NCBI GenBank assembly: GCA_964016885.1
Contig: OZ024745.1
Coordinates: forward strand, 111,662,001-111,726,000
DNA from: Eledone cirrhosa
Taxonomy: Eukaryota
DNA: 64,000 nucleotides
Reading direction: 5' to 3'
Under the pieces are notes generated by a model, which did no database searches, was not told the DNA's origin, and worked only from the letters and a program-made list of their open reading frames with translations. Shown here piece by piece: positions 4,350 to 38,556 of the stretch (positions are counted from its first letter, which is position 1; each line of letters opens with the position of its first letter). Made by a program: the position numbers and the translations under genes.

Positions 4350-4700
4350 AAGAGAATCAGATTCCAATCCAAACTAAGGCCTTCTCACTTCTGTTGGAGG
4401 AACCCCTCTCTGGTTGACCTCAACTGCCATCTGTTTGGTTTTGGTCATGTCAGGGGTGCAGCCATACTCATCCCGCTTGGCCAATTTCAGGTTGGTGAGG
4501 CTTTTTAATCTATAGTTAGGGTGGATGGCCGTTGACTCTGAAGAGTTCATCCACCCTTTTAACAGCTCTTATTTTTTGTACTGCTGAGGTACCACTTACC
4601 CTCTTCACCGGACCTGGGTTTGGTCGGGGAGCCGGTTTAAACATCAACCATTCAATTTCAATCATGAAGCAGGTTATACTGGGTTACATGGTACCAATCA
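4350..4700 (-). mobile_element. 5-prime UTR fragment of a LINE related to the 48830..51290 element
   Basis: Shares caggttatactgggttacatgNtacca, gccggttta and ggccgttgactct blocks with 51100..51265. Confidence 0.65.
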
Positions 4701-5349: not shown

Positions 5350-5790
5350 TTTCACCCACTTATTCCTGGAAGTGTCGTAGGGGGCAGAGTCCTTGAGCTC
5401 GCCTTTCAGCGACATTCTAAGCACATGTCTGTAATATCATAGAGATATAGCGGCTCTACTTGGAGTGACTTTTTGATCTCTAAGCTATGCACGCTATCGA
5501 GTAACATCACTCCAAAGACCCTTCAGAGGAACCCCATTTCTGCCACTTTTATTCACATTTGTATTCTTTTAATCATTACCTAAGATTCAGGACCAGAAGT
5601 AAGGGTTGGTACAAATACCAAATTGAAGATAGTAAGATCGGCTTTTACTCCTACCTTTCTTCTTCTGATGACCAAATGCTGAAGCTGGACACATTACTGC
5701 ACTAGCTCCTGCAATTCATGCACTTAATTCAACCTCCTTCCTCCCATTATTCATGAGCACAGTCCCAAGATACTTGAATTGTAGCATAGA
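5350..5790 (-). mobile_element. Decayed RTE (Rex3/Expander-like) RT C-terminal fragment
   Basis: Minus frames give QFKYLGTVLMNNGRKEVE...IAGASAVM and an AEMGFL-like motif, broken by stops and frameshifts. Confidence 0.6.
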
Positions 5791-6756
5791 CTTTACTGGG
5801 GAGGCTTAACAAGATCCCTCTGTAATTAGAGCAATCTCTCATCTTCCTTTTTGGAAAGTTGGGATTATTACTCCCAATTGCCATTGCTTAGATATCTTTC
5901 CAGAAATGCAGGCTACCTGGCATACACTAGCCAACCAGAAAATACTTTCTCTATTTAAGGTTTTTAACATCTCGGAGCTCTTTAATTACTCATGTGACCT
6001 TGGATTCTGAGAGTTTAATCATTGCTACCAGATGCACCTCGTGTACATGAGAAGACTAGGTTTAGGAGATCAGCAAAGTATTTTTTCCACCTCACAAGGA
6101 TACACCTCACAAGGATACACCTCTCTGAAGAGAGGAGAACCTGAAACACGTTCTTGATAGCAGATGTGGAGGAGGGCTTCTTATAACGAAGTCGGTGGAT
6201 GGTCTGTCAGAACACTTGATTTGCTGATCTGAAGTCGGATTCCTTTTCCTCTATTCTCACAATTTAATTCTTTTTCGTTTTTTTTTTTTTTCATTTTTAT
6301 TGGAAACATTATATAATCTAATTGAAATTTGTTGAATAAAAATATCTCATAAAAAAAAAAAAAGAAATACTAAATAAATAAAGATCTCAGAACTCCACTT
6401 TTACCTTGTCAACTTTGTGGCAAACATTTTTGGAAAGGGTACCCATCTTAAACTAAGATTAACTTATTTTCTTTCTTTCAGTCTCTCTTCAAGCTGGTTT
6501 GGTCTTTTAATTAGGTTCAGAGATACAGATCATGTGAGTTATCTTTTAGGAAGTTTTTTTTTTTTTATTGTTTTTTTTTGTTTTTTTTTAGAATTTTCTA
6601 GAATATTTCATCTTTCAGCCACCTTAGTAACAGTTCAGCTTTCTAACACTATATGCAGGCAAGAAATTTTTCACAATGACTTTTCCTAATTAGAACAAGT
6701 TTTCTTGCCATAGAAAACTTCCTTCGTGTTAATTAACTCACTAGTACTCAGCCACT

Positions 6757-7272
<516 letters not shown>

Positions 7273-7589
7273 CAACTTAATTAATTTCAGTACAACCATT
7301 AGTTAGAAAGACACCAACTTAAACATAGTTCCAACAAATTAGTCTATGCCTTCAGACAGTTCTTCATTTTCTTACCATTCTTTCACTTTGGAATATTATT
7401 CATGTTTTATCCATTCCAGAACTTAGTCTTGCTATCTCCTGATTGCTAATTTATTAGTGTTTGGTGTGTGCATGTGTATATGTATGTGAATAATCACATA
7501 TACATATACACACACACACATATATTTATAGACACATATGCATATATATATCCACACATGGTGGCTGCCAACTCGTTTTCGAGTACGGC

Positions 7590-7950
7590 CACTACTTTAT
7601 ATCGATGTAGGAGAACCCCTACCGATGCGCTGAACAAGTGTGACTTTTTTAGTCCAGCCAGCGACTTGAAAACTCTGGTACAAACACTACACCTGTGACA
7701 ATTATTGACACATAGTGCTGGGCCCATGGTACCATGTGACGACAAGTGCAGAGAGATCTCCAGATATAAAGCAATGCCTGTGCCGTGAAGCTTTTATAGT
7801 GAGCAAAGGCACTGCACAAAGCCAGTCCCACTCTCTTAAACAAGATGATATTTACCAAAAAGAAGAACAAGTCAACATCATTGGATACCATCAGGGTTGC
7901 AGGTGTTATATCAGAGTTTTCCTTCTCCTAGAATTCTGCCTTGACAAAGG
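7590..7950 (-). mobile_element. RTE/BovB-like ORF C-terminal remnant with C2H2-like knuckle
   Basis: Minus ORF 7494..7745 contains CSVCTRVFKSLAGLKKSH, resembling the CxxCxRxFxSxxGLxSH motif at RTE ORF ends. Confidence 0.55.
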
Positions 7951-8399
7951 CTAAGGGGTCATATCCACACATACATATATACATACACAAATACATACAT
8001 ACATATATACATATATATACACATACATAGATATGCACATATGCATACACATATACATACATACAGGCATATACATATATGTATAGATGCATATATACAT
8101 ATACAAACAGATATATATATATATGTGTATATATATATATACACACACACACATACACACACACACACACACACATGAACCCAAGTTGAAGCATATATAT
8201 ATATATTTAGTCTACACCACCTTCACCTCTACCCCACCTCACTCTTCCATACACCTCCCATGCACACAGGCTGAAGCATACATCTCATGTGCACCACCTT
8301 GCCCCCCTTCTACTTACCTCCCACATCCTAACACTCCACTCCTCACACACGCCCATATAGCCACCTCCCTAATTCCCACACACCTCTCCCACTAAAGTT

Positions 8400-9256
8400 C
8401 CCAGGCAACACAGTAAAGTGGTCATGATAGCGACATGACTAAAAACACCCAGGCCACACTGTAAAATGGTCGTGTAGGTGTCACGCCAAAGAGCTCCCAG
8501 CCCACACTTCAAAGTGGTCATGTAGGAGTCACAACAAAAAGCACCCAGCCCACACTTCAAAGTGGTCATGTAGGTGTCACAACAAAAAGCACCCAGCCCA
8601 CACTTCAAAGTGGTCGTGTAGGTGTCACAACAAAAAGCACCCAGCCCACACTGTAAAGTGGTCGTGTAGGTGACACGACAAAAAGCACCCAGCCCACACT
8701 GTAAAATGGTCGTGTAGGTGTCACGACAAAAAGCACCCAGCCCACACTGTAAAGTGGTCGTGTAGGTGTCACGACAAAAAGCACCTAGTCCACACTGTAA
8801 AGTAGATGTGTAGGTGTCACGACAAAAAGCACCCAGCCCACACTCAAAGTGGTTGTGTAGGAGTCACAACAAAAAGCACCAGCCCACACTGTAAAGTGGT
8901 CGTGTAGATGTCACGACAAAAAGCACCCAGCCCACACTGTAAAGTAGATGTGTAGGTGTCACGACAAAAAGCACCCAGTCCACACTGTAAAGTAGATGTG
9001 TAGGTGTCACAACAAAAAGCACCCAGCCCACACTTCAAAGTGGTCATGTAGGAGTCACGACAAAAAGCATTCAGCACACACTGTAAATGAGGTTGGTGTT
9101 AGGAAGGGCATCCAGCTGTAGAAACCAAAACAAAATCAGTTCTGTATGAGCAAGACATGGATGGTCACCTGACCTGGCATTTCTCATAACAGGACAACTC
9201 ATCTAATTCATGCTAGCATGGAAAAATATACGTTAAACGATGATGATGATGATGAT
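8400..9256 (+). repeat. 48-bp minisatellite (about 14 copies, 8400..9085) amplified inside an RTE-tailed repeat
   Basis: Unit cacactgtaaagtggtcgtgtaggtgtcacgacaaaaagcacccagcc (period 48, e.g. 8647 to 8695), then ggttggtgttaggaagggcatccagc and (GAT)n tail. Confidence 0.9.
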
Positions 9257-9265
9257 ACATATATA

Positions 9266-10140
9266 TCATCATCATCATCATCATTTTACATCCGCTTTTC
9301 CCTGCTTGCAAGGGTGGGACGGGTCTTATTCAGCACAGCATCTCTCCACTTGTCACGGTCCTTCGTCATCTCCACCGTGAGCTTCAGCGATGTGCTATAA
9401 GAACCAGATCGTCAGCATAGAGAAGTTCCCATGGACAGCCAGTCTTAAACTCCTCTGTTATGGCTTGGAGGACTATAATGAACAAGAGCGGGCTGAGGAC
9501 CGAACCTTGATGTACTCCTACTTGTATCTGGAATTCCTCACTAAACTCCATTCCTACCCTGACTTTACTGACAGCACCTCTGTACAATGTTTGCACTGTC
9601 CTCACAAGCCATTCCTCAACACCTAGTTTCTTTAGGGACCACCAGATGACAGATTGGGGTACCCTATCAAAGGCCTTCTCTAGGTCAACAAAGGCTAAGT
9701 ATAGTGGCTTATTCTTCTCTAAGAACCTCTCTTGTAATTGTCTCACCAAGAAGAGGGCATCTGTTGTACTTTTCCCAGGCACAAAACCAAACTGCATCTC
9801 ATCTAGTTTGACCCTTTCTCTAATTAGTTGTGCTAATATCCTTTCTGCTACTTTCATAACCTGATCCATCAGTTTTATACCCCTATAATTGCTCCTCTCC
9901 AGAGCATCTCCTTTACCTTTGTAGCAATTTATGAGAATACTGCTGCACCAGTCTTTGGGTATGACACCACCATATATAGCCTGATTGATGATGTGTGCAA
10001 CCAGTTTAGTGCCTACGTCCCCTGATGCTTTCAGCATCTCAGCAACTATACCCGACGGTCCAGCAGCCTTACCATTTTTCATTGCCTTAATCGCCTCTTG
10101 GAGCCTATATTTGTCAATCACAATAGCTGGTCCCTCTGTC
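9266..10140 (-). mobile_element. RTE-clade LINE family A, 5-prime truncated with internal deletion
   Basis: ORF 9384..10121: NYRGIKL, QFGF, DLEKAFDRV, GVHQGSVLSP, LYADD; joined directly to the 3-prime end and (GAT)n tail. Confidence 0.95.
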
Positions 10141-10142
10141 AG

Positions 10143-10430
10143 ATCATCATTTCATTTTACGTCCACTTTTCCCTGCTTGCAAGGGTGGGACGGGAACTGA
10201 TTCTGGCTTGATTTCTACAGCTGGATGCCCTTCCTAACACCAACCTCATTTACAGTGAGTGCTGGGTGCTTTTTTTTGCCTATCATCTCATTTCTACAGC
10301 TGAGTAAACTGGAGCAATGTGAAATAAGGTGCCTTGCTCAAGGAAACAACACATCACCCGGTCTGAGAATTGAACTCACAACCTTTCGATTGCAAGGCCA
10401 ATGCTCTAACCACTAAGCCATGTGCCTCCA
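10143..10430 (-). mobile_element. tRNA-derived SINE family M (RTE-derived tail), internally shortened
   Basis: Head ggaggcacatggcttagtggttagagca...gagttcaattc, Meta/MESC-like core ccttgagcaag, tail shared with RTE family A. Confidence 0.85.
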
Positions 10431-10919
10431 TCTATATATATATATATATATATATGAATACATATATATATGATTATGATGATGGCTTCATCTTGTCAGA
10501 TGATAGTTGTCTCACCCTCCCATGTGCAAGGTGACTCTTCAATCCAGAAACAAAAGACATGATCAACACCACCGCCACCTGCCAAGGTACTAACAACACT
10601 ATAACACAGGAAACATCAGAACAGGTGACTGGAGAAACCTGACTGCTCCTGACTATACTACATCTGCTGAGGTGATGAAACTATGAAAGTGGTGGTATTT
10701 CATTGTCACAAATACGAGTAAAAACCCTATAGTTGTAGCTATAGGATCAATGTCTATATAGTGTCAATAATTTAGAGCCCTGTTCTGCATTGACTGGAGA
10801 TTACAAAAGAGACATCTGTATTTCATGGATTATAGAGACAAATGCTTGTACAACATATTGTCACTCTCTGTATCTAAGTGATTATAATCTGATGACAAGT
10901 GTAAGCAAGATGATGAGTA

Positions 10920-11310
10920 CTCATGTAAACTGTGGGCTTCACTTCAGAGTTTACCTCTCTTAAAAGAATGCTGTAACAACAGTTTGGGGTTCTTCACTCC
11001 CAGTGGACTTACTACATTCCCTGACACCAACTAGGTGGATTTCTGTCATAATTGTGACTAAGGAGCCCCATCTACCCCGGTCAGAGGGACCTTCTTTTAG
11101 ACAGACTGCCACTCAAGATTGACAAGCTCTGACTAGCTGGAGCAACTGATTTTAAGGCACCAGTAATTTTCCCTTTGCCCCTTACCTTGTCAGTTCCAAA
11201 CATCTCCACCACGTGAAGGCCAGGAGCTTGGCTTCAGATGTCAGGGGTTATGTGAGATGCAAACCATTTGGGGCATTTTTCAGGCCTACTCCCACCCTGG
11301 CAATGATAAC
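10920..11310 (-). mobile_element. RTE-like 5-prime UTR fragment with a degenerate HDV-like ribozyme motif
   Basis: Minus gacatct...ctcctggccttcacgtggtggagatgtttggaactgac; resembles RTE 5-prime termini from memory. Confidence 0.4.
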
Positions 11311-11705
11311 CTTATATGGTTATATACATATATATAGTATGGAAAATAGACATTAAACGATGAGGATGATGATATATATATATATATACACACACACATA
11401 CATGAAGATGATGATGATCATACATATATATACATTTATTTAGAAATAACAGAAGGCTGGACTAGAAATATACCTTTAAAGTTTTAATGTTGCAAAAAAT
11501 ACGATACATATTTCAATATTTAACTCCATTCCTGCACAATCCACGGGATACCACATCTACGATGGATGAGTTGCATAATATAGAGTGCTTTTCTTACTAT
11601 TACATCATGGTTTGCTAACTGGAATGACCAGTTCTACCCATTGGCAAACCACACAATCATCATCACCATTTAGCGTCCATTTATCCATGCTTGCATGGAT
11701 AAATG

Positions 11706-11741
<36 letters not shown>

Positions 11742-12135
11742 GGAGGCACATGGCTTAGTGGTTAGAGCATTGGCCTTGCAATCGAAAGGTTGTGAGTTCA
11801 ATTCCCAGACCAGGTGATGTGTTGTTTCCTTGAGCAAGACACTTTATTTCACATTGCTCCAGTTTATGCAGCTGTAGAAATGAGAGGATAGGGACCGGGG
11901 TCCCTATCATTCCACTACAAAGTGGTCGTGGAGGTACTACGGAAAAAAAAAATGCACCCAGCCTACACTGTAAAGTGGACGTGTAGGCGCCACGGAAAGA
12001 AAGCACCCAGCACTCACTGTAAATAAGGTTGGTGTTAGGAATGGCATCTAGCTGTAGAAATCAAGCCAGAATCAGTTCACGTCTGACCCTTGCAAGCAGG
12101 GAAAAGCGGACGTAAAATGAAATGAATGAAATGAT
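11742..12135 (+). mobile_element. SINE family M, full length
   Basis: tRNA head, ccttgagcaagacac core, two 48-bp-type units, RTE tail; flanked by (TA)n. Confidence 0.9.
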
Positions 12136-12874
12136 ATATATACACACACAATGCTATTGACCACATCATCTACAACACCACTTCTATTGCCGCTTGTGTA
12201 TTCTCAACCCAACTACACCCCCTTGTCTCCAATGCTAACAAAGGTAACCTTTTCCCTCCTACTCTCAACCCTATCAAATCATACCACATTTGCCATACAT
12301 CCATAACTACATACTTGTCTTTCTTCTCTTCTCCCCCCTCCCCCACCCCAACAGAACAGAGACAGTTTTTCAGTTGGGACAATAACTAACACCCTCTCTA
12401 ATGTTGGTGCCCCAAAAATGCACCCGGTACTCTCTGTAAGATAGTTGGCAATAAGAAAGGAACCTTGCTGTGAAAACCATGCTAAAAGGGTTGAGAGGAG
12501 CCCTCAGTTGTGTCAACAGCACAACTACCTCTCTCTCGTGTCGGTGCCATGATAAAATGCACTCAGTAGAGCATGGGCTCGTATGCAAGCAAGACGCAGA
12601 CTCCTGGCATGTGTGGGAGGTTAGTAGCCTCACTTCAGTACTGACCCTGTCTGTGAAGGTTCGTCCAACCCTTGGGAAAGCAGATGTTAAATGATATTAT
12701 CATCATCATCATCGAAGTCACAGTTTATTGTCCAGTGGGTTCTTTTTATAGTGGGGCCAAAACGACCATTTTACAATGTGGACTGGGGGCTGGGGTGTAA
12801 GGTTGTGGGTGAAGGGTGGTGTGTTAGGATTTGAGTGGAGTGTTAAGACTTGGGTGGTGTATTGCAGGGGGGAG

Positions 12875-12921
<47 letters not shown>

Positions 12922-13264
12922 GTGTATATACGTAAAAGTAATAGCAAAAATAACAAAACAAACGGTACAGTACATGAAAGAAATATATTAGTTTAACGCC
13001 TGAAATGGCAGGAAGATTGTATTTGAGTATGTTAAACCGGGATGTGACTATGGGGGTTGGTGTTAAAAAAGGGCATCAGGCTGGCTGTAAAACTGCCTCA
13101 AAAATATTCATGATAAGAAACAAACATAAAAACCATGCCATGTCCCAAAAAAAACAAATAAATTAAAGGGAAGCTACTTTGGGATTTTAGATGCAAGGGA
13201 AATAACTATAGAATTTATAAATTTCATTTATTTAGTTACGAGGCTTTGGAGACATCATTTTTTA

Positions 13265-13735
13265 ATAATTGTTTCTACTTTTGGCACAAAGCCAGAAATT
13301 ACCCAGTGCATTACTGGTACTTTATTTTATCAACCCCGTAAGGATGAAAGGCAAAGTTAACCTCGGCTAGATTTGAACTCAGAATGGCAAGGACCGTAAC
13401 TCTATGCGTCAAAGCATGGCGTCCGACCCTCTACCGATACTGCCAATGCCTTTCATCCTTACGGGGTCGATATAATAAAGTACCAGTAATGCACTGGGTA
13501 ATTTGCTGGCCTTGTGCCAAAAAGTAGAAACAATTATTTTTTAGTGGATTGGCAGTATCGGTAGAGAGTCGGACGCCATGCTTTGACGCATAAAGTTGCG
13601 GCCCTTTCCATTCTGAGTTCAAATCCCGCCGAGGTCAACTTTGCCTTTCATCCTTACGGGGTCGATAAAATAAAGTACCAGTAATGTACTGGGTAATTGC
13701 TGGTCTTGTGCCAAAAGTAGAAACAATTATTTTTT
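13265..13735. mobile_element. SINE family N cluster: minus copy, inverted partial copy, plus copy
   Basis: 13265..13450 (-), 13447..13540 (+, 3-prime half), 13543..13735 (+). Confidence 0.85.
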
Positions 13736-14369
13736 TAATAATGATCTAAAGATGTATGTACCCATAATTCCCGATGGAGATGTAGGGGCACCATATTGAC
13801 ATACAGCATCTCTTAGGCATTTCTAAACCTGGTGAAGTCCATCTTTTCTCTAGCTCTGAACACAGCAGATTTCTTTCAGAGAAGGATAGAGAGTGAATGA
13901 AAGGGAGTGAGAAAGATATAGAGTAAGAATCAGCCCTAGTACTAGTCTGGTACTTTTTTTATCAACCTCGAAAGGATGAAAGGCAAAGTTGACTTTGCCA
14001 AGATTTGAACGCAAGGAGCAGAGAGCCGGAACTGATGCCACAAAGCAGTCTATCCGACATTCTAACAATTTCTGGTTATAAACCACCTAAATTTGTAATT
14101 AATCAAAACAACGATGACACCAAATAAATAAATATTGATTACAATTTTATTTCACATTAATTTTCCTCATGAGATAACTTCTATAATATTTCTATTTTAG
14201 AAGACAATATTATCAGTAAACTAAATTTGAACATTAAGTCCCATGTCACGTCGTGGAAATAAGTCTAGGCATATTTCATTCTCATATTCATAGATATTAT
14301 CGTGTTTCTCTTCCACAGCTTTACTTATCGCATGTAAATTATTCTATTCTATTCCTTTTATTTCTAAAC

Positions 14370-14670
14370 AATTCCATGTCCGTGGACATGCTTACAAAAT
14401 CAGAAAACAGTACCGCCCCCATTACTTTCGGAAACATTTTTCACATTCAAAGTTGCTGAAGCATGGAACAAACTACCTGCATCAGTTGTTAGCTATCGAG
14501 ACACTGCATCCTTCAAAACTTCCATGCTTCACGAAATCTGCCAACACTATACCTGATATTCCCCACTCTATACACTCGCATGCATGTATCTGTGTGTATA
14601 TCATGACCCATACCCTGTTCCCTTTCCTGACATTTGTAAATTATTCTATGTACTATACATGCACCTTTGA
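14370..14670 (+). mobile_element. CR1-like LINE 3-prime fragment
   Basis: Homologous to the end of the CR1 at 36733..37672 (gttgctgaagcatggaacaaactacctgcatcagttgttagc). Confidence 0.8.
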
Positions 14671-17600
14671 AAAGTAAAGTTGACCTCAGTGGAATTTGAA
14701 CTCAGAGCTGAGAGAGCTGGGCATTCTGTTTGATGTTCTAACAACAACCAATTCATCACCATGGTGAATAGGTAGGAAGAGTACAAAACATAACTATATA
14801 TCTTAGTTATTAATCTCTTCTAGTTGTATTATGAACTGAAAGTTCACCAGACATGGCTCTGTGGTTAAGAAATTTACTTTGGAACTACAGGCTTTCAGGT
14901 TCAATTCCACTGAATGATACCAAATGTCTTATGTTATAGCCCCAGGTTGAACAATGCCTTGTGAGTGATTTCGGTAGATGGGTACTGTAAGAAAAATTGT
15001 TATGTATGTGCGTGTGTGTGTACATGTGTGTATGTATACATATCATCATCATCAACATTTGACATCTGTTTTCCCATAAAACGTATGCTCTCACCGCACA
15101 CCACTATTCTACATGGAAAAGCAGATGTTAAAAACGATGATGATGGTGATAGAGTGAGGACTTAGCTTTTTATGCTTTAGGGATTCACAAAACCAGTATC
15201 AATAAACCCATGCATTCAATGTCAAGTTGGAAGAGCATCCAGCTGCAGAAAAGCATGCCAAAAATTAAATGTATGAGCAAAACGTGTTCAGCTAGTGTGT
15301 CTCAACTCATATTGTGCAAGCATGGGAAATAGACATATGATGATGATGATTCAGTTTCATTGGCTGTACCAAATTCACAAAGCCAAACAAAAACAATAGC
15401 TGGATTGATTTTGTTTTACCAAGCAAACTTGGCACAGTCAATTAAATTACAAGTTGCTCAAGCCAATGAGAAAGCCTCTGCATGTTGTTATAGCTCACAC
15501 CAACATATATGTTTAGTTGGCCTCCAGTGAGGCTGCATCTTACAAGGGGTTTCTTGTGTGTTTTTATAACAGGAGGCTTCAGCCCTATCATGTCACTATT
15601 TTTTTCTGTATTAGCAGATGGGATTTGAACTCGGAATGCACAGAACTGGAATAGATATCACAATGCAGCATGTCTGACTTTCATAACTCTGCCAATCCCC
15701 CACCCTAGTGTGGTACTTTATTTATCAACCACACAATGATAGGAGGCACATGGCCTAATAGTAAAGGTATTAGACTTACAATCATAATCTCGTAGGTTCG
15801 ATTCCTGGACTGGGTTGTGTATTGTGCTCTTTAGCAAAAAACTTCATTTTACATTGCTCCAGTATACTCAGCTGAAAATGATTGCCAGTAATAGCTGAGA
15901 CTTTAACCCTGTGATGGACTGGCATCTTGTCCAAAGGGGAATCTTGTACTCTGTCACTTAACACCATGGAAACCAGGATAGGCTGATGAGCCTGCAGGCT
16001 CAATATAGACTTTAAACTTTTTTTTTTAGACAAAACAATGAAAGTCAAAAATAATCTCAGCAGAATTTGTAATCAGAGTGCAGACAGCCAGAACTAATAT
16101 CAGAAAGAATTTAATTTAACGCTCTAACAACTTGCTGCCTCAGCTTCTAACTCAACCTATTAGAAATAGCAGCCAAATCCCATTCAAATTACACCCTACT
16201 GTTTTTTAAAAAAGGATACAATGGAAAATGAGGTACATTATATCTAAGAAAAAAATAAGTAAGCAGAATGTTATTGACTGGAATCTTTTTTGTTCAACCA
16301 GGGCTGAACAACAAATCAATAGATGTATTTGTACCCTGTGAGTACCCAGGAAACAGAAGATAATATCTTCTTAACTAAATATGGATAACAACTTTAATTC
16401 TCAGTTGAAGTATTTTCACTACAAATTTCATTGCAAAGGTATAAATGCCACAACAACCCACCCTAAACCAGAATTTTAATACAATATATGAAATAAAAAT
16501 TGTTTGATAAAATGAAAAAACATATATTAAATTCCTAGATGGGTTGGAAGGTTACATCTCATTCATATGTTCCATTTTTTGGCATGGTTTCTATGACTGG
16601 CTGCCCTGCCTAACAAAAACAACTTTACAGTGTGCACTAGGTGAGTTTTATCATGGCACTAACTCTAGAGAAGTTACCAAGTCCTCACCAAAACTAACGT
16701 TTACCCTTTATACTATACTGTCTCTGCTTACTCGCCAACCACTTTGTATTTTATCATGGTACCAACACTAGAGCAGACGTCTTGTCTCCTGCAAGGCTAA
16801 AGAATCCTTTCCTCTCAAATGATGATACAGGGCTAATCCCCCAGCCACCGGACCACAACTGATTATGAGAACTGCTATGGCTGAAGTAGGATTGTACAAA
16901 TCCAGGGATAAAATATGTGATGGCATTTGAAAGATAATTTAGATGTAAATATAAACTTTAAATAAGCAGTGAATTGGCAGAGTCGTTCGAACGTCAAATA
17001 GAATGTTTTGTGGTATTCATTTATGCTCTCTTTGTTCTGGGTTCAAATCCCAACTTTACCTTTCATCGTTCTGAGGTCGATAAAAAAAGGACAAATCTAT
17101 TACTGGGGTAGATTCTTTTTCTATAACTCTTTCACACTTCATCTCTCTCTCTCTCTTTTTCTCTGGAATAAATCAGTTGTGTTCAGACCTGGAGTTGAGA
17201 TGAGCTCTGCTAGATTTTAAAAGTATCCACAAAACACTGAATGTCACTACGGCGCTCCTACTAATCCACAAGAATTTATAGGTGAAAAAAGAAGATAGAT
17301 TTAAAATATGTAGTTAATTGTCTGAAAATTATATTAAAACCTTCAAAAGTTATGAAGCATGAGTAGCTACAAACATTTCATCCAGTGTCACTACTATTTG
17401 AAATTCCTATAAATTCATCATTTCGTAAAATATTTATATGCAGATTTTAACTTCTTTTAATTACATTAATGAGATGAATACAACTGGTGTTTAGTTTTGG
17501 TTCTGTGTCTTACAGTTTCTTGGAAGAAATAATTAGGCAAAGTAAATATTTAGTGCATGATTTGAGATAGGAGACTCAGTAAAAAGCATTTAGTGAATCT

Positions 17601-19889
17601 TGATAGAGGGGGGGGGGGGGTATTTCAATTTTAGTAAGGGAGACAACTCACATTTCGCAACTTGAATCACATGACGATTGTTATTTCAAAGGAATCGAGG
17701 CTTATGTTGAAACGAGAAAAAAAAAGAAATATGTTTATGGGCGAGAAATTGTAGTGTGTTAGTGAATGAATGTTTGCCAATCAGCCAATGGCCAACTTTT
17801 ACTTCTTTTACATGCAGTCTATAGTAGTTGTGTATGTAGTAGCCGAATATAAAACATGAGCAGGGAGGGATTTCAGAGGATAATGTTTAGGAGAAAAAAG
17901 TAGTTAGTGGGTAACAAGTAAGTTGGATGAGCCTGAATAAAAGTGGCTTGGGATCAGCCAACTTCGAGAAACAGAGGTCACTATAACAGTAGAATAGAGA
18001 GAGGGGGAGAAAGAGAGCACATCTGTAGGTCAGAGATTAAGTCTAACTTTAAATTTGTAGGTGGTTTGCAAACTAATCAAGGCTGGTCTTAAAGTGGAAA
18101 CTTAGTCTTTACTGTGCAGATTTGGTGATGTTATGTTATGAAGGCGCATGAGGTTGCGTGTTTGATTCCCAAACAGAGCAATGCATTATATATACTGTAG
18201 TGCACCTAAGCACTGTACACAATAACTTTCATCCTTATGTCCTTGAGCAAAACATTTTATTTCACGTTGCTCCTTCTGCTAGGAGTTGTGATCAGTAAGT
18301 GAATGAGGTCTGGGAACTTGTCGATCGATTCCATTTATATAGGTACAGTCATCATGAAAGATCACATCTGTAATAACTCTAAGGATATAATTGTATATAA
18401 TTCGTTTATATGGAAGTTGTGCTGTTCATGTGTAGAGAGAGTGGTGTATAAGACTGTTTTCTTTGTGTCTTTGCACAAGAAAGAGGACTACACTGGTTTT
18501 GACATGTGATACATATGGATTGGATGAAGAATGTTAGGTGAAGAAGTGGAAGGTAGCTGTAGTAGAGGAAGAGTGAGAAAGGTGGTTACAGCTGATCTCA
18601 AAACACTGAACATTACAGAGGAGATGAAGAAGGAACAATGTGAGTGGAGAGAGGCTATGCTGTAGAGGACTTGTCCAACCCATGCAAGTAAGAAAAAGTG
18701 GATATAAAATGATGATGATGATGCCAAAAGAGATTAAATAGTCATGTTCCAGTTAAAAGATTTTCTCCAGTTAAAAGTTTTTATTCATAGAAACAAACTG
18801 TTGAATGCATGTACATGACACCTGTGAATAGCTGGTAAGGAAAGAGTGAAGTGTGTGTTCATTATCACCATTATTTGACTGTAGTAACAGATGGCTACAA
18901 TCCTGACTACACCTATTGCAGCTCCCATAATCAGTTGTGACCCCATGGCTGGGTGATTAGCCCTGTATCATCATCATCACCATTATTTGAGTGGTTCTGT
19001 GCCTGGGTGATTAGCTCTGTATCATCATCATCATCACCACTATTTGACTGTAGTAGGAAATGGCTACAATCCTACTTCACCTATTATTGCAGCTCTCATA
19101 ATCAGTTGTGGTTCTGTGCCTGGGTGATTAGCTCTGTATCACCATTATTTAACAGATGACTACAATCCTACTTCATCCATAGCAGCTCTCATAATCAGTT
19201 GTGGTCCCATGGCTAGATGGTTAGCCTTGATCATTAGAAGGATTTGAATCCCCAGATGGAATTTGAACTGAGAACACAAAAAGCCAGAATAAATTCCACA
19301 TGCCATCTTGTCTAATGCTCTATCAATTCCACCAATCCATTGTTGCTCTGGACTGGTACTTATTTGATTGATGCCTCCCCCTCCACCAAAAAAGGATGTA
19401 AAGCAAAGTTAACCTCACTGGGATTTGAACTCTAAGTGCTGTGAGCCAAAGCAGATAACACAAGATATAATAATAATATATAATGAAAATGATTGTGTAC
19501 AGTGCTCAGGTGCTCTACAACTCATCAAAGGTGCATGTATAGTACATAGAATAATTTACAAATATTCAATCCAACACCCTAATTACTCTGGTAATTTGCC
19601 ACCTTATAGTAAGAGAAAATGGTGTGTTACTATTTGCATAGAGGTGTGTTGTTAGGAGCAACAGTAAATCATTCATCATCATTTAACATCTATTTTCCAT
19701 GCTAGCATGAATAGGACAGGCTGTCCCTTTGGGAGAGATCAGGTCAGAGGGCTGCGTTTCGCTGACAGAACTCATTTTGGCTTGGTTTCTACGGTTGGAT
19801 GCCCTTCCTAATACCATGTGTTACCATTTGCAGAGAGATGTGTTGTTAGCAGCAACAGTAAATCATTAGTGACAGTAATTAAAAGTCAT

Positions 19890-20900
19890 TAATGTATAGA
19901 AGGAAGAGTTTAGGTGACATTAGAAAACCTTGAATTGATAGAATAAAAGTCAGAGAGAGCTTTATAAATATTTGCAACAATCCAACAGGAATCTTCCTGA
20001 TACAAAAGAAAATGAGAAATGGATGAAACCCAGATGTCGATATCAGATATGGTTGGAGATTTTCTTACTGCCAAGTGCACTGTTCCTTTTTGCCAAAGTT
20101 CCAAATGTCAATGGGGCACTCATGAGATATTGAAGACCGAGTCTGCAGTAAGTAGATCTGGATCTATGGAAGTCATTCTGGTAATAACTGAGGAGGAAGA
20201 GAGGCTCAAAGTATAGTGAAAGGTGATTATTACAGCTGTTTCCATCACCTTTGAGATGTTAGATGTGGAAGCAAAATGTCAGTAACTGGTAAGATCAAAG
20301 AGATCATCCTTTTTGAAGATCAGATATGTTATAGATTATATGCAGAGACTGAGAGGAGAGGAGAGCTATTGAAGGGACTTCATTGAGAAAAGGAGCCCAA
20401 TGTTTGAGGATGGTAGAAGGAAGTAGTGTTAGGAGCAATCACTTTGTTGGTTTAGAGCAATCAGAGTTGTTGTATATTGACGGCTGTGTGTGTGCAATTG
20501 ATACTATTGGAGTATACAGAAGAGGAGTTTGGGCAGGATTTTTTTAGAGCCTGCATTGCAGGAATGAAGGTGAAGCAAATAGCTTTCTGACATAAGTAGC
20601 AAATAACTTTTTTAGTGAGGAGGATTATGTGAACAGAATCCTTCTGGTTGAGAAATAATGAGCACGAAGATTCGTCAAAGTCAGTAGAACCCATCTTGAC
20701 AAATACCAGAAAATTCTTTTACAATTTGGAAAGAGCTTACAGGCTATGAGATACACAATGATATCCTTTCCTTTACTAATGGGAGTCTTGAAGGTATGTC
20801 AGAATTGTGTGACTTAATTCAGGTGTTTTAGGAAGTGTTGTTTGCCTGTATTCCATAACCACAGTAGATACAGGTAAACTCTTCACAATCCTTTGTCGAT
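19890..20900 (-). mobile_element. Heavily decayed LINE RT region (CR1/Jockey group)
   Basis: Remnants such as TSNISKVMETAV and a following ALDISK-like segment, with many stops. Confidence 0.5.
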
Positions 20901-21099
20901 GTGAAGGGATATGCCTAGAAAGATGGATTCAGTTACCCACTTAACTGTCTTAATGTAAAGAGGGACTGGGTAAAGGTTAGACCAAAATCTGAAGCACGTA
21001 AATTAAAAACAGGAAGGTGCAGTATATGGTATACTGTTGATATATTATTTCCATTCAATGAGTGGCGAATCTGGATAGTTCGAGAAATGAATAACAAAC

Positions 21100-21900
21100 G
21101 TCCCTCCTCCTCCTCCCCAAGCTGACGTCAAGTCCCCCCCAGAGTATTTGGGATGCCATCCAGTGCAACCTGGCCTCAGACAGGCCAGTGCGCCAGCTCG
21201 ACCAGCACCACCTTGCATCTTTTCACGCGGCCTCACAACCCCCACAGAGGTGCCTGGCTCCGTGCCTTACCCTCCTTCTTCATTGGCCATTGGCACGCAT
21301 CTGGACAACGATAGCCTGCGCATCGGAGTTTACCTGAGGCTTGGCCTCTGGATCTGCGAGCCACACAAATGTCACTGTGGATCCACCGTGAGCTCTTTCT
21401 GTCTCCACCCACTTTTCTGTCGCTACAGTGCTGGCCGCCTTCCACGAAATCATAAAGCATGGTTTGGATGCTGCAAGCTTCCCCTCCCAGCTCGAGCCGG
21501 TGGGGCTGAACCAAGGGGACGACAAAAGGCCAGATGGTATGACCATATTCCCATTCCGTGGTGGCAAACCCTTCGTCTGGGATGCCACTTGCAGCGACAC
21601 TTTCTCCAGCCGCAACCTGGTGCAGTCAGCGACTAACCCAGGTTCTGCTGCACTTCGGGCTGAGGAGGGCAAACTCTCCAAGTATCAGTCGCTCTCCGAC
21701 AGGTCATGCCCCTAGCAGTGGAGACTTCTGGTGTCCTCGGCTCTAGGGCTACCTCCCTACTTACCACCATAGGCACTGAGCTGGCTCTCTGCAGGTGTGA
21801 GCCTCGCGAGGTGGAATGGCTCTTCCAGCGCATCTCCCTTACCATTCTCCGGGGAAACGCCTTCTAGATTCTGTCCGCCCGAGCTGTGGGACGGCCATCA
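21100..21900 (+). mobile_element. CRE-type non-LTR retrotransposon C-terminal fragment (zinc knuckle plus restriction-like endonuclease), frameshifted
   Basis: LRLGLWICEPHKCHCG...HPLFC..AGR, EPVGL..DDKRPDGMT..P...GKPFVWDATCSDT, AEEGKLSKY, AVETSG, QRISLTILRGNA across three frames; GC-rich relative to flanks. Confidence 0.85.
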
Positions 21901-22416
21901 CGTGGGACCCTATTTGCTCATAATACAGAGATGGGGAGAACGAGAGAGATGGAGGAGATGACAGTGGGAGGTCGGCTCTTCCGTGTTCGGACACATCAAT
22001 TCTATGTTGTTGTTGATACTTAAATATCCGACCATTATTCCTTCATTAATACATCAGTAAGGGTAATGTATTTACGTTCGTACATAGAAATAATAACATT
22101 GATGAGTTGACCCCCCTTGCGACATTACCCTTCGTGTTTTTTAGACACGGTGTATCTCGAACTATATTATAAGGTTTTTGCTTTTTTAAAGATGATAGGG
22201 TGTTGTTGGGAGTCACTTAGGTGCTATTTCTAGCAGGTTAAATGACAGGGTGAAGTATCAGCTGTATAACACGAACATTGACAGTAATAAATATCAATAA
22301 ATTTTCTTTCTATTACTTAATTGAAACTATTCGCTTTCATGTATGTAAGAAAATAACTGCAACAAAGAATTTCTATCAAAGAATATTAAAATATAAATAA
22401 GTAAGAGCGAACCTAC

Positions 22417-22555
22417 CTGATTTCAATGACACCGGAGGGTACTCTTAAAACACATGTAAGTGTGTTAGCAACAGCACCGGCGGTGTAAATTCTGAATACA
22501 TACCCTCTTAAAAACTCTATTACATTATGTGCACATGGACACAACGAAAGTATTT
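22417..22555 (-). CDS. Exon of an unidentified antisense gene (EILSLCPCAHNVIEFLRGYVFRIYTAGAVANTLTCVLRVPSGVIEI)
   Basis: attatag acceptor, CAG|GTAGGT donor, 139 nt open in phase 1, matching the phase-1 donor of the 26919 exon. Confidence 0.55.
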
Positions 22556-22890
22556 CTATAATATTTTTAAATTAAAATGCAAATATGTAATTAAAACGCA
22601 TCTTTCTGAAATCAGTTTTTCTCGTTATCTCGTAGGTTAGTGGCAAAATAAAAGGCTATTCAGTGTTTCTTTTTGCTAAAAGCAAATTATTATTCAAAGA
22701 TATACTATTAGGGGTGTTTTTTATTATCTACAAATTGCATCAAGTATTAATCTGCAGCATATTTATAAAAACTATTATTCGGTTTATGTAAAGGGACACT
22801 CAATAGCTATCAAGGTTATAAATGCAAGGGAGATAACTAATAACTCTTGTTAGTCAATTTAATGTAAACAATATATTGTGATAGTTCATC

Positions 22891-24154
22891 ATGTTGTTTC
22901 AGCTTTCCTATTCAGTCAAAAGAATTATATACAATAAGGTAAGGAAACAGATTTCAAAATCTCTGTACGAGATATGCAGCACAAATAATGTGATTCGTTT
23001 TGATTATCCGCGATTCGATGCTTCAAAAATACGTCTTTTATCCACCGTACCCAACATCGGACTTTCTCAAAATGACATTAAGACATCACGAAAAATTACT
23101 AAGAAAGTTTCTCGAAGACAACCAGTTTCATTCAATGTCGGTTATGCTCTTTACAAGTCCTTAGCACTTTCAAAATATATACACCTTGTGGAAAATATGG
23201 AAACTTATGAAAAAATGAAAAACTCCGGCAATCAGTCTGCTAAGGAGTTACTTAAACACCTTCAGTCGGTTAGGCCATTATCTGTGCCTAAATTAAAAGA
23301 AATGGAACAAACTGCTATAGGAATTTTTTCTGAATTAGATTTGAACGAAAAGTTTTTAGTTGCTCATATATTTTTCTCGTCTTATTTTCGTTGCCCTAAA
23401 TATTTAAGTACATTATTTGAACACATCGACAACAAATTTGACGAGGTTATTCATGAACAAGGCACGTTACATCTAACCTTGTTCTATATATACTTTCATG
23501 GAAGTGGACCAGAAACTTTATTACAGAAAATCGAAGACCATTTATCTGGAATAGTAAATGACCTTAGTGCAGATGAAATAGGTTTGGCCTGTTTAGGATA
23601 TTTCCGTGCTAACCGAAGAATCTTTTCCTTCAATTTACTTGATGAATTTGCCGAAAAAACACTTTCATACTTAGAGTCAATTAATCCCAATCAGCTTATA
23701 AATGTACTAAAGGCTTTCCGCCACGCTGGTTATTCTAAAGTAAGTTTCTTTGAAAGACTTGCCAAACAATTAATCATGAATAATCTCTTAAATGAATTTA
23801 ATCTTAATCAAATCATGCATATCGTGATGGCATTTGCTTCCAGCAGAATACACCATCCTGCTTTGATTCATCACTGTTTACTGAGAGCTCTGGATGTTGT
23901 CAATTACATGCCATCTATTCGTTCCAAAGAAATAGGTAGGATCATATGGGCTGTGGGAACTTTAGGCATAGCTGAGGCAGATATGTCCATCGTTAAAACT
24001 CTTATAGATATTCATTCACGAATTGAAGATCAAAGCAACAAGGAATACCCAGAATCTGTCTGTGATACTGTTATGGGTTCCATATTTCTTGGAATTTTCC
24101 CACAAAATCTCATCAACTATTTAATGAAAGATGAAAATGTTAAACTATTGCAAG
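22891..24154 (+). CDS. FASTKD5: FAST kinase domain-containing mitochondrial RNA-binding protein (FASTKD5-like), coding exon 1
   Basis: 421 codons plus 1 nt of helical-repeat ORF with basic N-terminus (possible mitochondrial presequence); DEIGLACLGYF, RSKEIGRIIWAVGTL, YPE motifs; donor AAG|GTTTGT. Paralogue assignment is from remembered motifs. Confidence 0.85.
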
Positions 24155-24854
24155 GTTTGTTGTTTGCTTTTCTTTACAGCATTATATGTGGGTACAGTCT
24201 TGTGGTAAGGATATTGGATTTACGATCATAATGTAGTGGGTTCGATTCGTGAACTGGCTTGTGTGTTGTGTTCTTGAGCAAAATACTTCATTTCACGTTG
24301 CTCCAGTATACTCAGCTGAAAATGAGTATGAATAGTAGCTGGGTGTTTAACTCTGCAATGGACTGGCTGAGATTTCCAGGGGGGAAATCTTGTAGCATCA
24401 GCTGCTTAAGGGTAAGAAAATCGGGATAAACACTGGCCTAATGAACCTCAGGGCATGAGACAGACATTAGATAGCATGGTTGAATGGTTAAGAAGTTTGC
24501 TTCGCAATCATTATGTCTTTGGTTCAATCCTGCAGCATGGCATCATAGACAAGTGTCATTTACCATAAGCCTTGGGTCAACCAAAGTGAAATTGGATAGC
24601 TGGATTGGACTGTACTTATAATTCAAAGGCAAGGCTTTGTTGCACATTGTGCCAAACTGAATCTCCCTGACAATTACATTAAGAGAACATGGTCTGTGGA
24701 ATGCTCAACCACCTACACATTAATCTCAACAGTAGGCTGTTCAGTTGATCAAACAACTGGCTCACTCATCGTTGAAACCGATGGAGATCCATTCCAGCAT
24801 TAAACTCATTATTCTCTGAATAAATATTCTGAATACTTGTGACTTAGGTTAGGT

Positions 24855-25070
24855 AACAATTGTTTCTACTTTTAACACAAGGCCAGCAATTTAAAGGGAA
24901 AGGGAATGTCAATTAAGCCGAACCCTATGCATTACCAGTATTTTATTTCATCAACCCCGTAAGGATGAAAGGCAAAGCTAACCTTGCTAGGATTTGAACT
25001 CAGAACATAAAGGGCTGTAACTATATGTTGCAAAGCATGTTGTCTGATGCTCTACTGATTACTGCCATTA
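24855..25070 (-). mobile_element. SINE family N (FASTKD intron 1)
   Basis: Same head/core/tail as 1370..2012. Confidence 0.8.
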
Positions 25071-26011
25071 AATTATGTTGATTTAATTGCTGGCTTTGTG
25101 CCTAAATTAGAAATCAATATTACTCCAGTTGGAAATTGAAACTGTTATTAGACAAATCAGTTGTTTATTTGGAGTATTCCTTTATGTCAATAAATAAAAC
25201 GTTTAATACTAGTTGCCTCTATCTAACTGGAGAATATGCCCCAAGCCTTACAGAAAAATAAGCTGTGGTATCCCTTTTGATAGCAACCCACCCAAAAGCA
25301 GCTTTGGTTCTATGAAACAAAACCACCTACTTTAAAAGATTCCTATTTAAATTGAAATGTTCCTATATAATTTTAGATAAGAACCATATATTAAGTTACT
25401 ATCTTAGTAATGAATTAATGGTTTTAGTAAGTTCCTCAAAATTTTTCTTTTTTACCCACATATTCCTGGGAGGTTTGTGGGACCAGAATCCTCAAAAATG
25501 CCTTCTAGAGGGTCTCATCAGAAGCAACTCTCTCCAATCGTTCCAACTGGATCCCCAAGTGAGACCAACTGAGCTCATGAATTTTATCCGAAATTCCTCA
25601 TTAATTAATTGAAATAGAGTGTATTTCATTAGCAATATAGTCACAAAAGGATTAACTATATAAAATTGTCAGCAGTTGTGACCGGTAGTATCAGCAATGA
25701 AAGGACCAATGGAAACATTGTTTCCATGGTCCAATTTATTGAGATCCACCCCACTTGGTATGCGAATGAGGTCTGGAATCTTGTCAATTGATTTAATCGA
25801 TCAATATTTTTAAAATGCGATTCCACTCAACTGTTACCAGTAACAATAATGAACTGCTTAGAGTTGCATCTAACATTAGTGGTCTTTTAACATAACATCT
25901 GTTGTTGACAGAAAATGTTGATGAATAACACAATCGTGTTTCCACTTACATTTAGTTATTGAATAAAGATGGCTGCAATTTTGCAACTACCAGGTTCATA
26001 TTGTGCAATGC

Positions 26012-26235
26012 TAATATTGTTTCTACTTTAGGCACAAGGCCAGCAATTTGAAGGGGGAGGGAAAAGTCGATTAAATCGACCCCAGTGCTTACTGGTACTT
26101 TATTTTATCAACCTCGTAAGGATGAAAGGCAAAGCTAACCTTGGCGGGATTTTAAATCAGAATGTAAAGGGCCATAATTCTACTCCTTGAAGCATTTGAT
26201 CCAACACTGTACTGATTCTGCCAATCCACCAGCCT
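26012..26235 (-). mobile_element. SINE family N (FASTKD intron 1)
   Basis: Same head/core/tail. Confidence 0.85.
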
Positions 26236-26598
26236 TCATGTTGTCTTCACTTCTTCATCATCATTTAACGTCCATTTTCCCTGCCAGCAAATGTTCAATG
26301 GGTTGTCAGCAGACCATGTCAGTACTCAAGCAGAGCTACTGATATCTCAGTTAAGATGGTTGGGGGGGGGGGGGGGGGTCATCTTTCCTATGTTCCCCCA
26401 CACTACCCAGTGTTCAATGATATTGAAGCCTAGTGATTAACTTTGTCTTTACCAAATTTCTAATTAAAGTAATCATGGGTGGTGGTTTAGTAAAATAACT
26501 AACTTTCTCATTATTAAGTTAGTGTGTGGACATAAATTAACAAAAGTTCTTATATAAACTTATGTGGGAATGTTTTTAGATAAATATAAACACTTTAA

Positions 26599-26819
26599 CC
26601 CTTTAGCGTTTAAACCAGCCATATCCAGCCAGAATTCTCTCACCTCATCCTGTTTAAACCAGCTGTAACTGGCTACTCATACTGATGTTAAGGTATTGTT
26701 CTCAAAATAAATAATATCAAAATCTCATAGATTCGATATTATGTGAAATAATCATGTAAGGTAAAGCCTTTACCATGAAAATATAATAGTAAATATAGAG
26801 TAATGTAAATGCTAAGGGG
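26599..26819. mobile_element. piggyBac-like MITE (about 220 bp) inserted in an older MITE-like repeat
   Basis: TTAA|ccctttagcgttta ... taaatgctaagggg|TTAA; host repeat resembles 32268..32515. Confidence 0.8.
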
Positions 26820-26918
26820 TTAAAACAGTTTTTTTTTTATCATAGAACCTCAGGTGGTTTAGTTAGAAATGTTGAAATCCAAACACATTCACTACAATTA
26901 TAAAATTGAGTAAAGTAC

Positions 26919-27120
26919 CCTGAAGGACAGAAAATAAGTAGTCAGAAGCTACTACAGATGTTCTAATACTATTATCATTATGTGTGAATTTGTGTTTGGA
27001 TTTCAACATTTCTAATTCCAAATCATCCAAACGTCTCGATAAATCGTAAAATTTGTTTACTTCTAGCTCTAAAAGGATTTTTGGATTGTATTGTTCATGT
27101 TCTTCACCTGTGTTTTTCAT
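26919..27120 (-). CDS. Coding part of an antisense exon (MKNTGEE...KFYDLSRRLDDLELEMLKSK...DYLFSVLQ), coiled-coil-like
   Basis: Non-repetitive open frame inside ORF 26863..27183; donor CAGG|GTACTT (weak); best acceptor cctttccttatatttacctttgttag opens the exon at 27215. Confidence 0.5.
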
Positions 27121-27129
27121 TTCATGAAG

Positions 27130-27224
27130 GTCTTCGTGGTTTGGAGAAGAAAACCCAACTTCTTTTGATACATAACTCAACACTCATTGAATGCCCGACT
27201 TATAAAGGCTTAAAACTAACAAAG
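27130..27224 (+). CDS. FASTKD5: FASTKD5-like exon 2 (GLRGLEKKTQLLLIHNSTLIECPTYKGLKLTK)
   Basis: tttttcatttcatgaag acceptor, AAG|GTAAAT donor, phase 1 to 0; IECPxYxGxxL motif typical of the FAST region. Confidence 0.9.
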
Positions 27225-30786: not shown

Positions 30787-30946
30787 CAATCAATAAAGAA
30801 ATTTCAAGTGTCAGATTTTACCAAAGCTATTAACTTTGAACTGAGCACTCGTTCTGGTTTGAATCCTATCTATGAAGAACTTGTAGCTCTGTTTGGTGAA
30901 GCAAAAGTACACTGCAACATGATACTACCACACTTTACAACTGCAG
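30787..30946 (+). CDS. FASTKD5: FASTKD5-like exon 3 (QSIKKF...VHCNMILPHFTTA)
   Basis: Long T tract plus tag acceptor, CAG|GTTAAG donor, phase 0 to 1; ILPHF..AD motif. Confidence 0.9.
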
Positions 30947-31988: not shown

Positions 31989-32154
31989 ATATTGAGATTC
32001 ACCTAAATTCTGACAACTTTCCTCAAAGGTTCACACCATCAAAGGAGGTTTTAAATTCTCATAATATCCAAAACTTTACAATCCAACAGACTGTTACTGA
32101 AGATTTATTACAACAACTTATCAGACCATCAACAGACAAACAATCTAAATACAG
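31989..32154 (+). CDS. FASTKD5: FASTKD5-like exon 4 (DIEIHLNSD...VTEDLLQQLI...SKY)
   Basis: ttttttacag acceptor, CAG|GTACAG donor, phase 1 to 2, open frame. Confidence 0.88.
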
Positions 32155-36419: not shown

Positions 36420-36537
36420 AATTGCCATACAGGTGGCAGGGCCAAATCAGTGTTCTTTTACTGACCCACCTGTCATCTTTGGAATATATCGCACCAAACT
36501 GAGACAGTTACAGGTGTTAGGCTATGAAATTCTTTTT
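36420..36537 (+). CDS. FASTKD5: FASTKD5-like exon 6, RAP domain (RIAIQVAGPNQC...GIYRTKLRQLQVLGYEILF)
   Basis: Acceptor ...caaccag, donor TTT|GTAAGT, phase 2 to 0; RAP consensus (IAI.V.G..., K.R.L..LGY). Confidence 0.92.
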
Positions 36538-38442: not shown

Positions 38443-38556
38443 GTAACTTCAAGTGAAGCAAAGCATTTAAATGAGAGACTGTCTCCTGATGAAAGAAAAA
38501 AGTGGGTTCTTCAGAATATCATTGAGAAATTGAACATCAATATTAACAGCACATGA
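38443..38556 (+). CDS. FASTKD5: FASTKD5-like terminal exon (VTSSEAKHL...ERKKWVLQNIIEKLNININST*)
   Basis: ttttttattttcag acceptor, phase 0, TGA at 38554..38556. Confidence 0.85.
   Translation, partial: VTSSEAKHLNERLSPDERKKWVLQNIIEKLNININST

What the first reader, a model, noticed from the sequence alone, without database searches (positions are those of the whole stretch)
22417..27224. Unannotated antisense gene interleaved with, and probably overlapping, the FASTKD5-like gene
Seen: two non-repetitive minus-strand exons splice in frame (26919 phase-1 donor to 22555 phase-1 acceptor) to give ...KFYDLSRRLDDLELEMLKSKHK...DYLFSVLQ|EILSLCPCAHNVIEFLRGYVFRIY... The whole 1.26-kb FASTKD exon 1 lies in that intron, the downstream exon sits about 335 bp upstream of the FASTKD ATG (its likely promoter/5-prime UTR), and the upstream exon, if it uses the strong acceptor at 27216, covers 86 of the 95 nt of FASTKD exon 2. 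Inference: a cis-antisense pair with possible transcriptional interference or dsRNA formation. I do not recognise the protein.
Basis: partly seen in the sequence, partly recalled or inferred. Interest (0 to 1): 0.75.

Follow-up and report, generated by a model that had tools for sequence, protein, structure and literature searches.

The report
Giant MRPS16 gene faces FASTKD5
Most of the proposed antisense gene's upstream 'exon' is a scattered repeat, but an RNA-like contig does splice out of its other exon on the opposite strand, and that exon is likely the non-coding first exon of the mitochondrial ribosome gene MRPS16, which would share a promoter with FASTKD5 and stretch over 426,000 bases.

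Summary
The splice dinucleotides and the in-frame join exist, but the interleaved protein gene is not supported. The part overlapping FASTKD5 exon 2 has an in-frame stop. The 22555 acceptor scores below all real ones, and neither peptide has a credible homologue. The 22417 donor is real: one contig of an RNA-like run leaves there for a 27-nt exon 57 kb away, then continues with AGA. The genome's single detected MRPS16 coding exon lies 318 kb further on the same strand, starts with AGA two bases before its ATG, and has the best acceptor of 34,486 in 665 kb. So this is likely a head-to-head MRPS16/FASTKD5 pair on a CpG-rich promoter, with MRPS16 (129 aa) spanning 426 kb. That link rests on three read letters plus context. 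Predicted extras: a FASTKD5 5'-UTR intron that would make the two first exons overlap by at least 39 nt, and one ratchet-point-like site mid-intron. Ordinary kind of arrangement, unusual size.

The parts
22417..22485 (-). Spliced exon of the divergent transcript, likely the first 5'-UTR exon of MRPS16 (5' end not defined); carries a 10-codon uORF
   Evidence: X4 contig of 600 nt lies here with record positions 1-69 and leaves exactly at 22417; donor score 7.0, 99.9th percentile; uORF
1..22416 (-). Window part of intron 1 of that transcript (57,443 nt in all, to a 27-nt exon at G000:C5:111626973-111626947)
   Evidence: 27 of the 30 loose-end letters map once in 164 kb, between a canonical AG and GT
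22486..22555 (-).
   Evidence: acceptor score -3.2, 73rd percentile, against 1.0-10.3 for six real acceptors; no credible homologue
22251..24000 (.). CpG-rich single-copy stretch, likely the shared promoter and 5' ends
   Evidence: CpG o/e 0.86-1.02 in 1-kb windows starting 22001-23001, median 0.22 over 607 windows
22456..22635 (+). Predicted 180-nt 5'-UTR intron of FASTKD5; would put a FASTKD5 first exon ending at 22455 across the MRPS16 first exon
   Evidence: best donor (4.8) and best acceptor (6.8) in 22000-22890; such an ordered pair occurs in 30 and 52 of 7635 windows per strand; no read support
22891..24154 (+). FASTKD5 coding exon 1
   Evidence: 75% identity to O. bimaculoides XP_014789256.1; joined to exon 2 in an X4 contig
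26863..27073 (.).
26919..27215 (-).
27130..27224 (+). FASTKD5 exon 2
30787..30946 (+). FASTKD5 exon 3
31989..32154 (+). FASTKD5 exon 4
36420..36537 (+). FASTKD5 exon 5
38443..38556 (+). FASTKD5 exon 6 with stop; six exons give 638 aa without internal stop

Best explanation
An RNA-like contig splices on the minus strand from 22417 to a 27-nt exon 57 kb away, and this is likely the non-coding leader of MRPS16, which would be transcribed head-to-head with FASTKD5 from one likely bidirectional promoter. Shown: the 22417 splice, the 27-nt exon, the next three letters AGA, a single-copy MRPS16 with coding exons at C5:111308681-111308412 and C5:111258286-111258165, and the repeat origin of 26863-27073. 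Inferred: the leader joins the MRPS16 exon (directly, or through a 53-nt exon at C5:111611456); both mitochondrial gene-expression genes fire from the same unmethylated CpG-rich stretch and are co-activated; the 426-kb size comes from repeat build-up in introns; short uORFs in the leader may damp MRPS16 translation.
For: Contig and loose end, mapped between canonical minus-strand AG and GT. MRPS16: PF00886 E 2e-15, one match in the genome, best PDB hits mitoribosomal bS16m, E 1.6e-19, 129 aa, AATAAA after the stop. Its coding exon starts AG|AGA, two bases before the ATG, so it needs an upstream exon; its acceptor ranks first of 34,486 AGs in 665 kb; AGA follows 2.0% of YAG and 3.8% of AG. Of seven CpG-rich patches between that exon and FASTKD5, the two AT-rich unexplained ones searched are young repeats. 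A-over-T skew on the plus strand: mean 0.044, 38 of 42 10-kb bins, inside the span against 0.020, 21 of 29, beyond it (p = 0.005, bins not independent). With the 53-nt exon the 600-nt contig would end 12 nt after the AATAAA. Repeat: 26 of 28 aligned copies frameshifted, 12 of 28 with stops, 1 of 28 clean; 18 of 28 lack the window's base at 26983; substitutions 146/922, 130/923, 152/905 at codon positions 1-3.
Against: Only three read letters tie the 27-nt exon to what follows; the splice evidence is one contig from one run whose kind is not on record. Fourteen AGA-starting acceptors scoring above 3 lie between the 27-nt exon and the MRPS16 exon, one of them strong (10.8, C5:111611456), and a 504-nt terminal exon there would end about 57 nt inside a repeat where an assembly could break. 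The 53-nt exon's donor is weak (0.3). Without it the contig would run 65 nt past the AATAAA. Four of the CpG-rich patches (-187, -137, -45, -35 kb) were judged mobile-element remains by eye from their open frames and not searched; windows rich in repeats were left out of the CpG scan. Star pN/pS in the repeat frame is 0.69, not 1 (comparisons share one reference). Splice matrices are recalled generic consensus, not trained on this animal.
Confidence: 0.85

Rival explanations
1. The 22417 transcript is a divergent lncRNA of the FASTKD5 promoter: 69 + 27 nt, then a terminal exon from C5:111611456; MRPS16 has its own promoter further down.
For: Strongest acceptor in the first 265 kb and starts with AGA; 504 nt from it ends inside a high-copy repeat; that model has no ATG frame above 20 codons; octopus has thousands of putative lncRNAs (PMC9115989, passages).
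Against: Leaves MRPS16 without a found promoter or upstream exon and makes its AGA start a 2-4% coincidence; strand skew continues to the MRPS16 3' end.
Confidence: 0.07
2. 22555-22417 is an internal non-coding exon of a longer MRPS16 leader that starts further up, inside FASTKD5, so the two genes do interleave.
For: An AG exists at 22555; contigs cannot show a start; a minus-strand pair of fair sites 27215/27108 exists (3.4 and 3.3).
Against: The 22555 acceptor is weaker than all six real acceptors; the CpG-rich stretch is centred on 22.2-24 kb, not in intron 1.
Confidence: 0.06
3. One reading: a protein-coding antisense gene joined 26919 to 22555, overlapping FASTKD5 exon 2.
For: Sites and frame exist; the 106-codon frame scored 14.3 in a codon-usage scan, among the higher values; the frame stays open through the 27-nt exon.
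Against: Repeat origin with frameshifts in 26 of 28 copies; stop inside the overlap; both junction sites score below all real ones (0.2 against 0.6-7.0; -3.2 against 1.0-10.3); the frame stops a few codons into either candidate next exon; 45-aa peptide against 1.84 billion representatives gave one hit, a tandem-repeat protein at 25% identity, while 8 of 9 45-aa pieces of FASTKD5 found the O. bimaculoides protein at E below 0.001 at that database size; no hit at E 1 or better for either piece among longer proteins (weak searches).
Confidence: 0.02

Closest known systems
Divergently paired (head-to-head) genes on bidirectional promoters, e.g. HADHA/HADHB (PMC2568002, passages; PMC12672016, passages)
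   Same: Opposite strands, 5' ends within 1 kb, housekeeping genes; mitochondrial ribosomal proteins are named among conserved human pairs' clusters.
   Different: This partner pair was not seen in the searches made; one partner's coding exon is 376 kb from the promoter.
Human FASTKD5/UBOX5 promoter sharing (PMC2568002, table passage)
   Same: FASTKD5 shares its promoter region with another gene.
   Different: Human pair is same-strand; here UBOX5 (PF19318) is on another contig, C10, and the partner is opposite-strand MRPS16.
MRPS16 / bS16m (PF00886; PDB 5aj4_AP, 3j9m_AM)
   Same: S16 domain, conserved motif, 129 aa, single copy.
   Different: Predicted span 426 kb with introns of 57, 318 and 50 kb, against a median gene of 20,288 bp and median intron of 2,467 bp in O. 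vulgaris (PMC10700109, table passage).
Non-autonomous TIR elements / MITEs of octopus (PMC13282606, passages)
   Same: Short, dispersed, palindromic, no conserved reading frame.
   Different: Family and target-site duplication not determined; the window copy has a truncated arm.
Drosophila intronic ratchet points (PMC8605326, PMC6110457; search listing and start of abstract only)
   Same: One juxtaposed strong acceptor and GTAAGT donor on the gene's strand near the middle of the 318-kb intron (C5:111480052).
   Different: One site only, no intermediates seen, no enrichment at a looser threshold.

Membership tests
FASTKD5 (FAST kinase domain family) | Full-length homology to annotated FASTKD5 with intact frame | tested here: met
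   75% to XP_014789256.1, six exons, 638 aa
FASTKD5 (FAST kinase domain family) | FAST_1/FAST_2/RAP domains above Pfam cut-off | tested here: inconclusive
   FAST_1 22.6 bits under the 27.4 cut-off on exon 1; exons 2-5 singly 0 of 4 hits; the joined protein was not scanned
MRPS16 / bS16m | Ribosomal_S16 domain, closest to mitoribosomal bS16m, single nuclear copy | tested here: met
MRPS16 / bS16m | The 22417 exon is part of the MRPS16 mRNA | tested here: inconclusive
Bidirectional promoter pair | Two genes on opposite strands, diverging, 5' ends within 1 kb | tested here: met
   minus exon 22485-22417 is 406-474 nt from the FASTKD5 ATG; true starts not mapped
Bidirectional promoter pair | CpG-rich, unmethylated intergenic DNA | tested here: inconclusive
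   CpG o/e about 1 against median 0.22; methylation itself not measured; octopus promoters scantly methylated (PMC9476566, passages)
Bidirectional promoter pair | Promoter activity in both directions, co-expression | not testable with these tools
   needs reporter assay or many RNA samples
   26 of 28 repeat copies frameshifted, flat codon-position rates; no credible homologue; other cephalopod DNA not available
   contigs show presence only; both sites weak
MITE / non-autonomous TIR element | Terminal inverted repeats, short, many copies, no coding frame | tested here: met
MITE / non-autonomous TIR element | Target-site duplication and superfamily-type ends | not tested
   element ends vary between copies
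Recursive-splicing ratchet point | Strong acceptor directly followed by a consensus donor in a long intron, gene strand | tested here: met
   C5:111480052, scores 8.1 and 9.0, expected 0.006-0.07 by chance
Recursive-splicing ratchet point | Splicing intermediates or saw-tooth nascent RNA | not testable with these tools
   needs total or nascent RNA reads

The most novel reading that the evidence does not exclude
MRPS16 and FASTKD5, a mitoribosomal protein and a mitochondrial RNA-processing factor, start from overlapping antisense first exons (at least 22417-22455), and the 600-nt MRPS16 mRNA is cut from a 426-kb precursor whose 318-kb leader intron is removed in two steps at a ratchet point, so a long transcription delay and uORF micro-exons set MRPS16 output apart from its promoter partner.
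Probability: 0.15. Interest if true: 0.55.

Novelty: new member of a known kind. Interest (0 to 1): 0.3.

Why it matters
It removes a false novel gene and corrects the annotation: MRPS16 gene models built from protein alone would miss a promoter 376 kb away. If confirmed, a small housekeeping ribosomal-protein gene about 20 times the median O. vulgaris gene length is a clean case for asking how octopods tolerate giant introns in constitutive genes, and whether they use recursive splicing. Head-to-head mitochondrial gene pairs themselves are common.

Tried and rejected
No RNA holder was listed on record; X4 was treated as RNA only because its contigs join exons. X4 has no cover at 22486-23088 or 26868-27126 and no 26919-22555 joint was listed (572 joints not shown); contigs show presence, not absence, so this is not used as evidence. 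UBOX5 as partner: rejected, on C10. Pfam on 96 minus-strand frames in window 1-22400 (of 120 listed) and on 80 predicted exons within 300 kb: no credible hit, but the four FASTKD5 control exons also gave 0 of 4, so the test was blind. I first read the transcript as a lncRNA and changed my reading after extending to 700 kb. Rfam on 144 kb (window plus L011-L018): 0 matches, so no snoRNA/miRNA-host evidence there; the rest of the span was not scanned. CpG patches at -319 kb and -205 kb as MRPS16 promoters: young repeats. The AGA acceptor at -313 kb is a CT microsatellite. Ratchet enrichment at a loose threshold: none (4 minus against 3 plus inside the span, 6 and 4 outside). The protein atlas gave no result. 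Earlier findings near this place or by words: none. Literature search for divergent lncRNA in molluscs: 0 papers.
Full report
Setting. The window is G000:C5:111662001-111726000 of a 3.0-Gb octopus-like genome. The plus-strand gene is FASTKD5: exon 1 is 75% identical to O. bimaculoides XP_014789256.1, and six exons (22891-24154, 27130-27224, 30787-30946, 31989-32154, 36420-36537, 38443-38556) give 638 aa without a stop. FASTKD5 is linked to processing of mitochondrial transcripts that lack flanking tRNAs (PMC9525292, passages).

The observation. All four minus-strand splice dinucleotides exist, the 26919-22555 join is in frame, and the lengths and distances quoted are right. The join is not beyond chance: 33 of 120 GT/AG pairs between the two frames are in frame, the donor scores 0.2 (real ones 0.6-7.0) and the acceptor -3.2 (real ones 1.0-10.3), on matrices built from recalled generic consensus.

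The upstream 'exon' is not unique. Its translation matches 8 other places; its DNA gives 66 matches including itself from 40 scored of 186 candidates. Copies cover 26863-27073 in both orientations, with perfect 25-nt inverted arms. The rest of the proposed exon is the back of FASTKD5 exon 2 and holds an in-frame TGA at 27186-27184. Searches with the two pieces found no credible protein; 8 of 9 equally short FASTKD5 pieces would have found the O. bimaculoides protein at that database size, though that protein need not be a representative in the library.

What is real. Four runs of one study hold the stretch; none is on record as RNA. X1-X3 run through introns; X4 joins FASTKD5 exon 1 to exon 2, so it behaves as RNA. 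One 600-nt X4 contig lies on 22485-22417 and leaves at the donor. Of its 30 loose letters 27 map once in 164 kb, to an exon at C5:111626973-111626947 bounded by AG and GT on the minus strand; the last three are AGA. Strand is inferred from these splice sites. Intron 1 is 57,443 nt.

Which gene. No coding exon was recognised in the first 300 kb, but that scan was blind to its controls. Extending to 700 kb, the top predicted minus-strand exon is MRPS16: PF00886 E 2e-15, one match in the genome, best structures bS16m. It is 270 nt, starts with AGA, has its ATG at base 3, and is followed 50,125 nt later by a last exon with stop and AATAAA; protein 129 aa, span 426,321 nt. Its acceptor ranks first of 34,486 AGs in 665 kb; AGA follows 2-4% of acceptors by chance. 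The 22.2-24 kb stretch is CpG-rich and single-copy. Six other CpG-rich patches lie between: two were searched and are young repeats, four were judged mobile-element remains by eye. Strand skew is higher inside the span than beyond it. Against: a second strong AGA acceptor at C5:111611456 could start a lncRNA terminal exon or a 53-nt leader exon; the latter would put the contig end 12 nt after the AATAAA, against 65 nt without it, but has a weak donor.

Mechanism. Likely one unmethylated CpG-rich promoter fires both ways (octopus methylation is on gene bodies and scant at promoters: PMC9476566, passages), co-activating two nuclear genes for mitochondrial gene expression. At least 42-49% of each MRPS16 intron is locally repeated sequence, so repeat build-up likely explains the size. 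The leader has uORFs of 10 and 3 codons; any effect is untested. Two predicted extras: (a) the best plus-strand donor (22455) and acceptor (22636) upstream of the FASTKD5 ATG form an ordered pair seen in 0.4-0.7% of 500-nt windows, which would make the first exons overlap by at least 39 nt; the 22636 site also reads as a donor, so this is open. (b) A ratchet-like site at C5:111480052 splits the 318-kb intron 147/171 kb, expected 0.006-0.07 times by chance; it was looked for after an earlier AI note suggested the idea, and looser thresholds show no enrichment.

Comparison. Divergent pairs are over 10% of human genes and lean to housekeeping roles (PMC12672016, passages). Human FASTKD5 shares a promoter with UBOX5 on the same strand (PMC2568002, passage); here UBOX5 is on C10. 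Overlapping coding/non-coding pairs number about 250 and 500 in two octopus species (PMC9115989, passages). Five papers hold both MRPS16 and FASTKD5; the one opened uses them in unrelated senses, the other four were seen as listings only; searches listed nothing on this pair. Median O. vulgaris gene 20,288 bp, intron 2,467 bp (PMC10700109). Unchecked AI notes report other giant-intron housekeeping genes in this genome, so the size is unusual but probably not unique.

Verdict. The finding as proposed is not a real gene; the underlying feature is likely an ordinary head-to-head MRPS16/FASTKD5 pair with a very long MRPS16. New member of a known kind; interest 0.3.

Noticed in passing
window 58750-62500: A second CpG-rich, mostly single-copy stretch (o/e up to 1.28, the highest 1-kb windows in 364 kb); may be another gene's promoter.
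   Followed up: no
L029 / G000:C5:111480052 (minus strand): Ratchet-point-like site, strong acceptor directly followed by GTAAGT, near the middle of the predicted 318-kb MRPS16 intron.
   Followed up: partly
window 22456-22635 (+): Strong donor and acceptor that may mark a FASTKD5 5'-UTR intron and overlapping first exons.
   Followed up: partly
L072:600-1620: Young 1-kb repeat set in AT microsatellite, 96-99% identical at 39 other scored places of 668 candidates.
   Followed up: no
L010 / G000:C10:114269-114868: UBOX5 (PF19318) lies in a 565-codon open frame on another contig.
   Followed up: no
window 22818-22850: The predicted N-terminal extension of O. bimaculoides FASTKD5 matches this 5'-UTR stretch in another frame (7 of 11 residues): likely conserved UTR, and that extension may be an annotation artefact.
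   Followed up: partly
window 21091-21900, 36857-37673, 47216-50517, 55523-57977: Decayed retrotransposon-like reading frames (family names not tested), the first in the predicted MRPS16 intron 1, the second in FASTKD5 intron 5.
   Followed up: no
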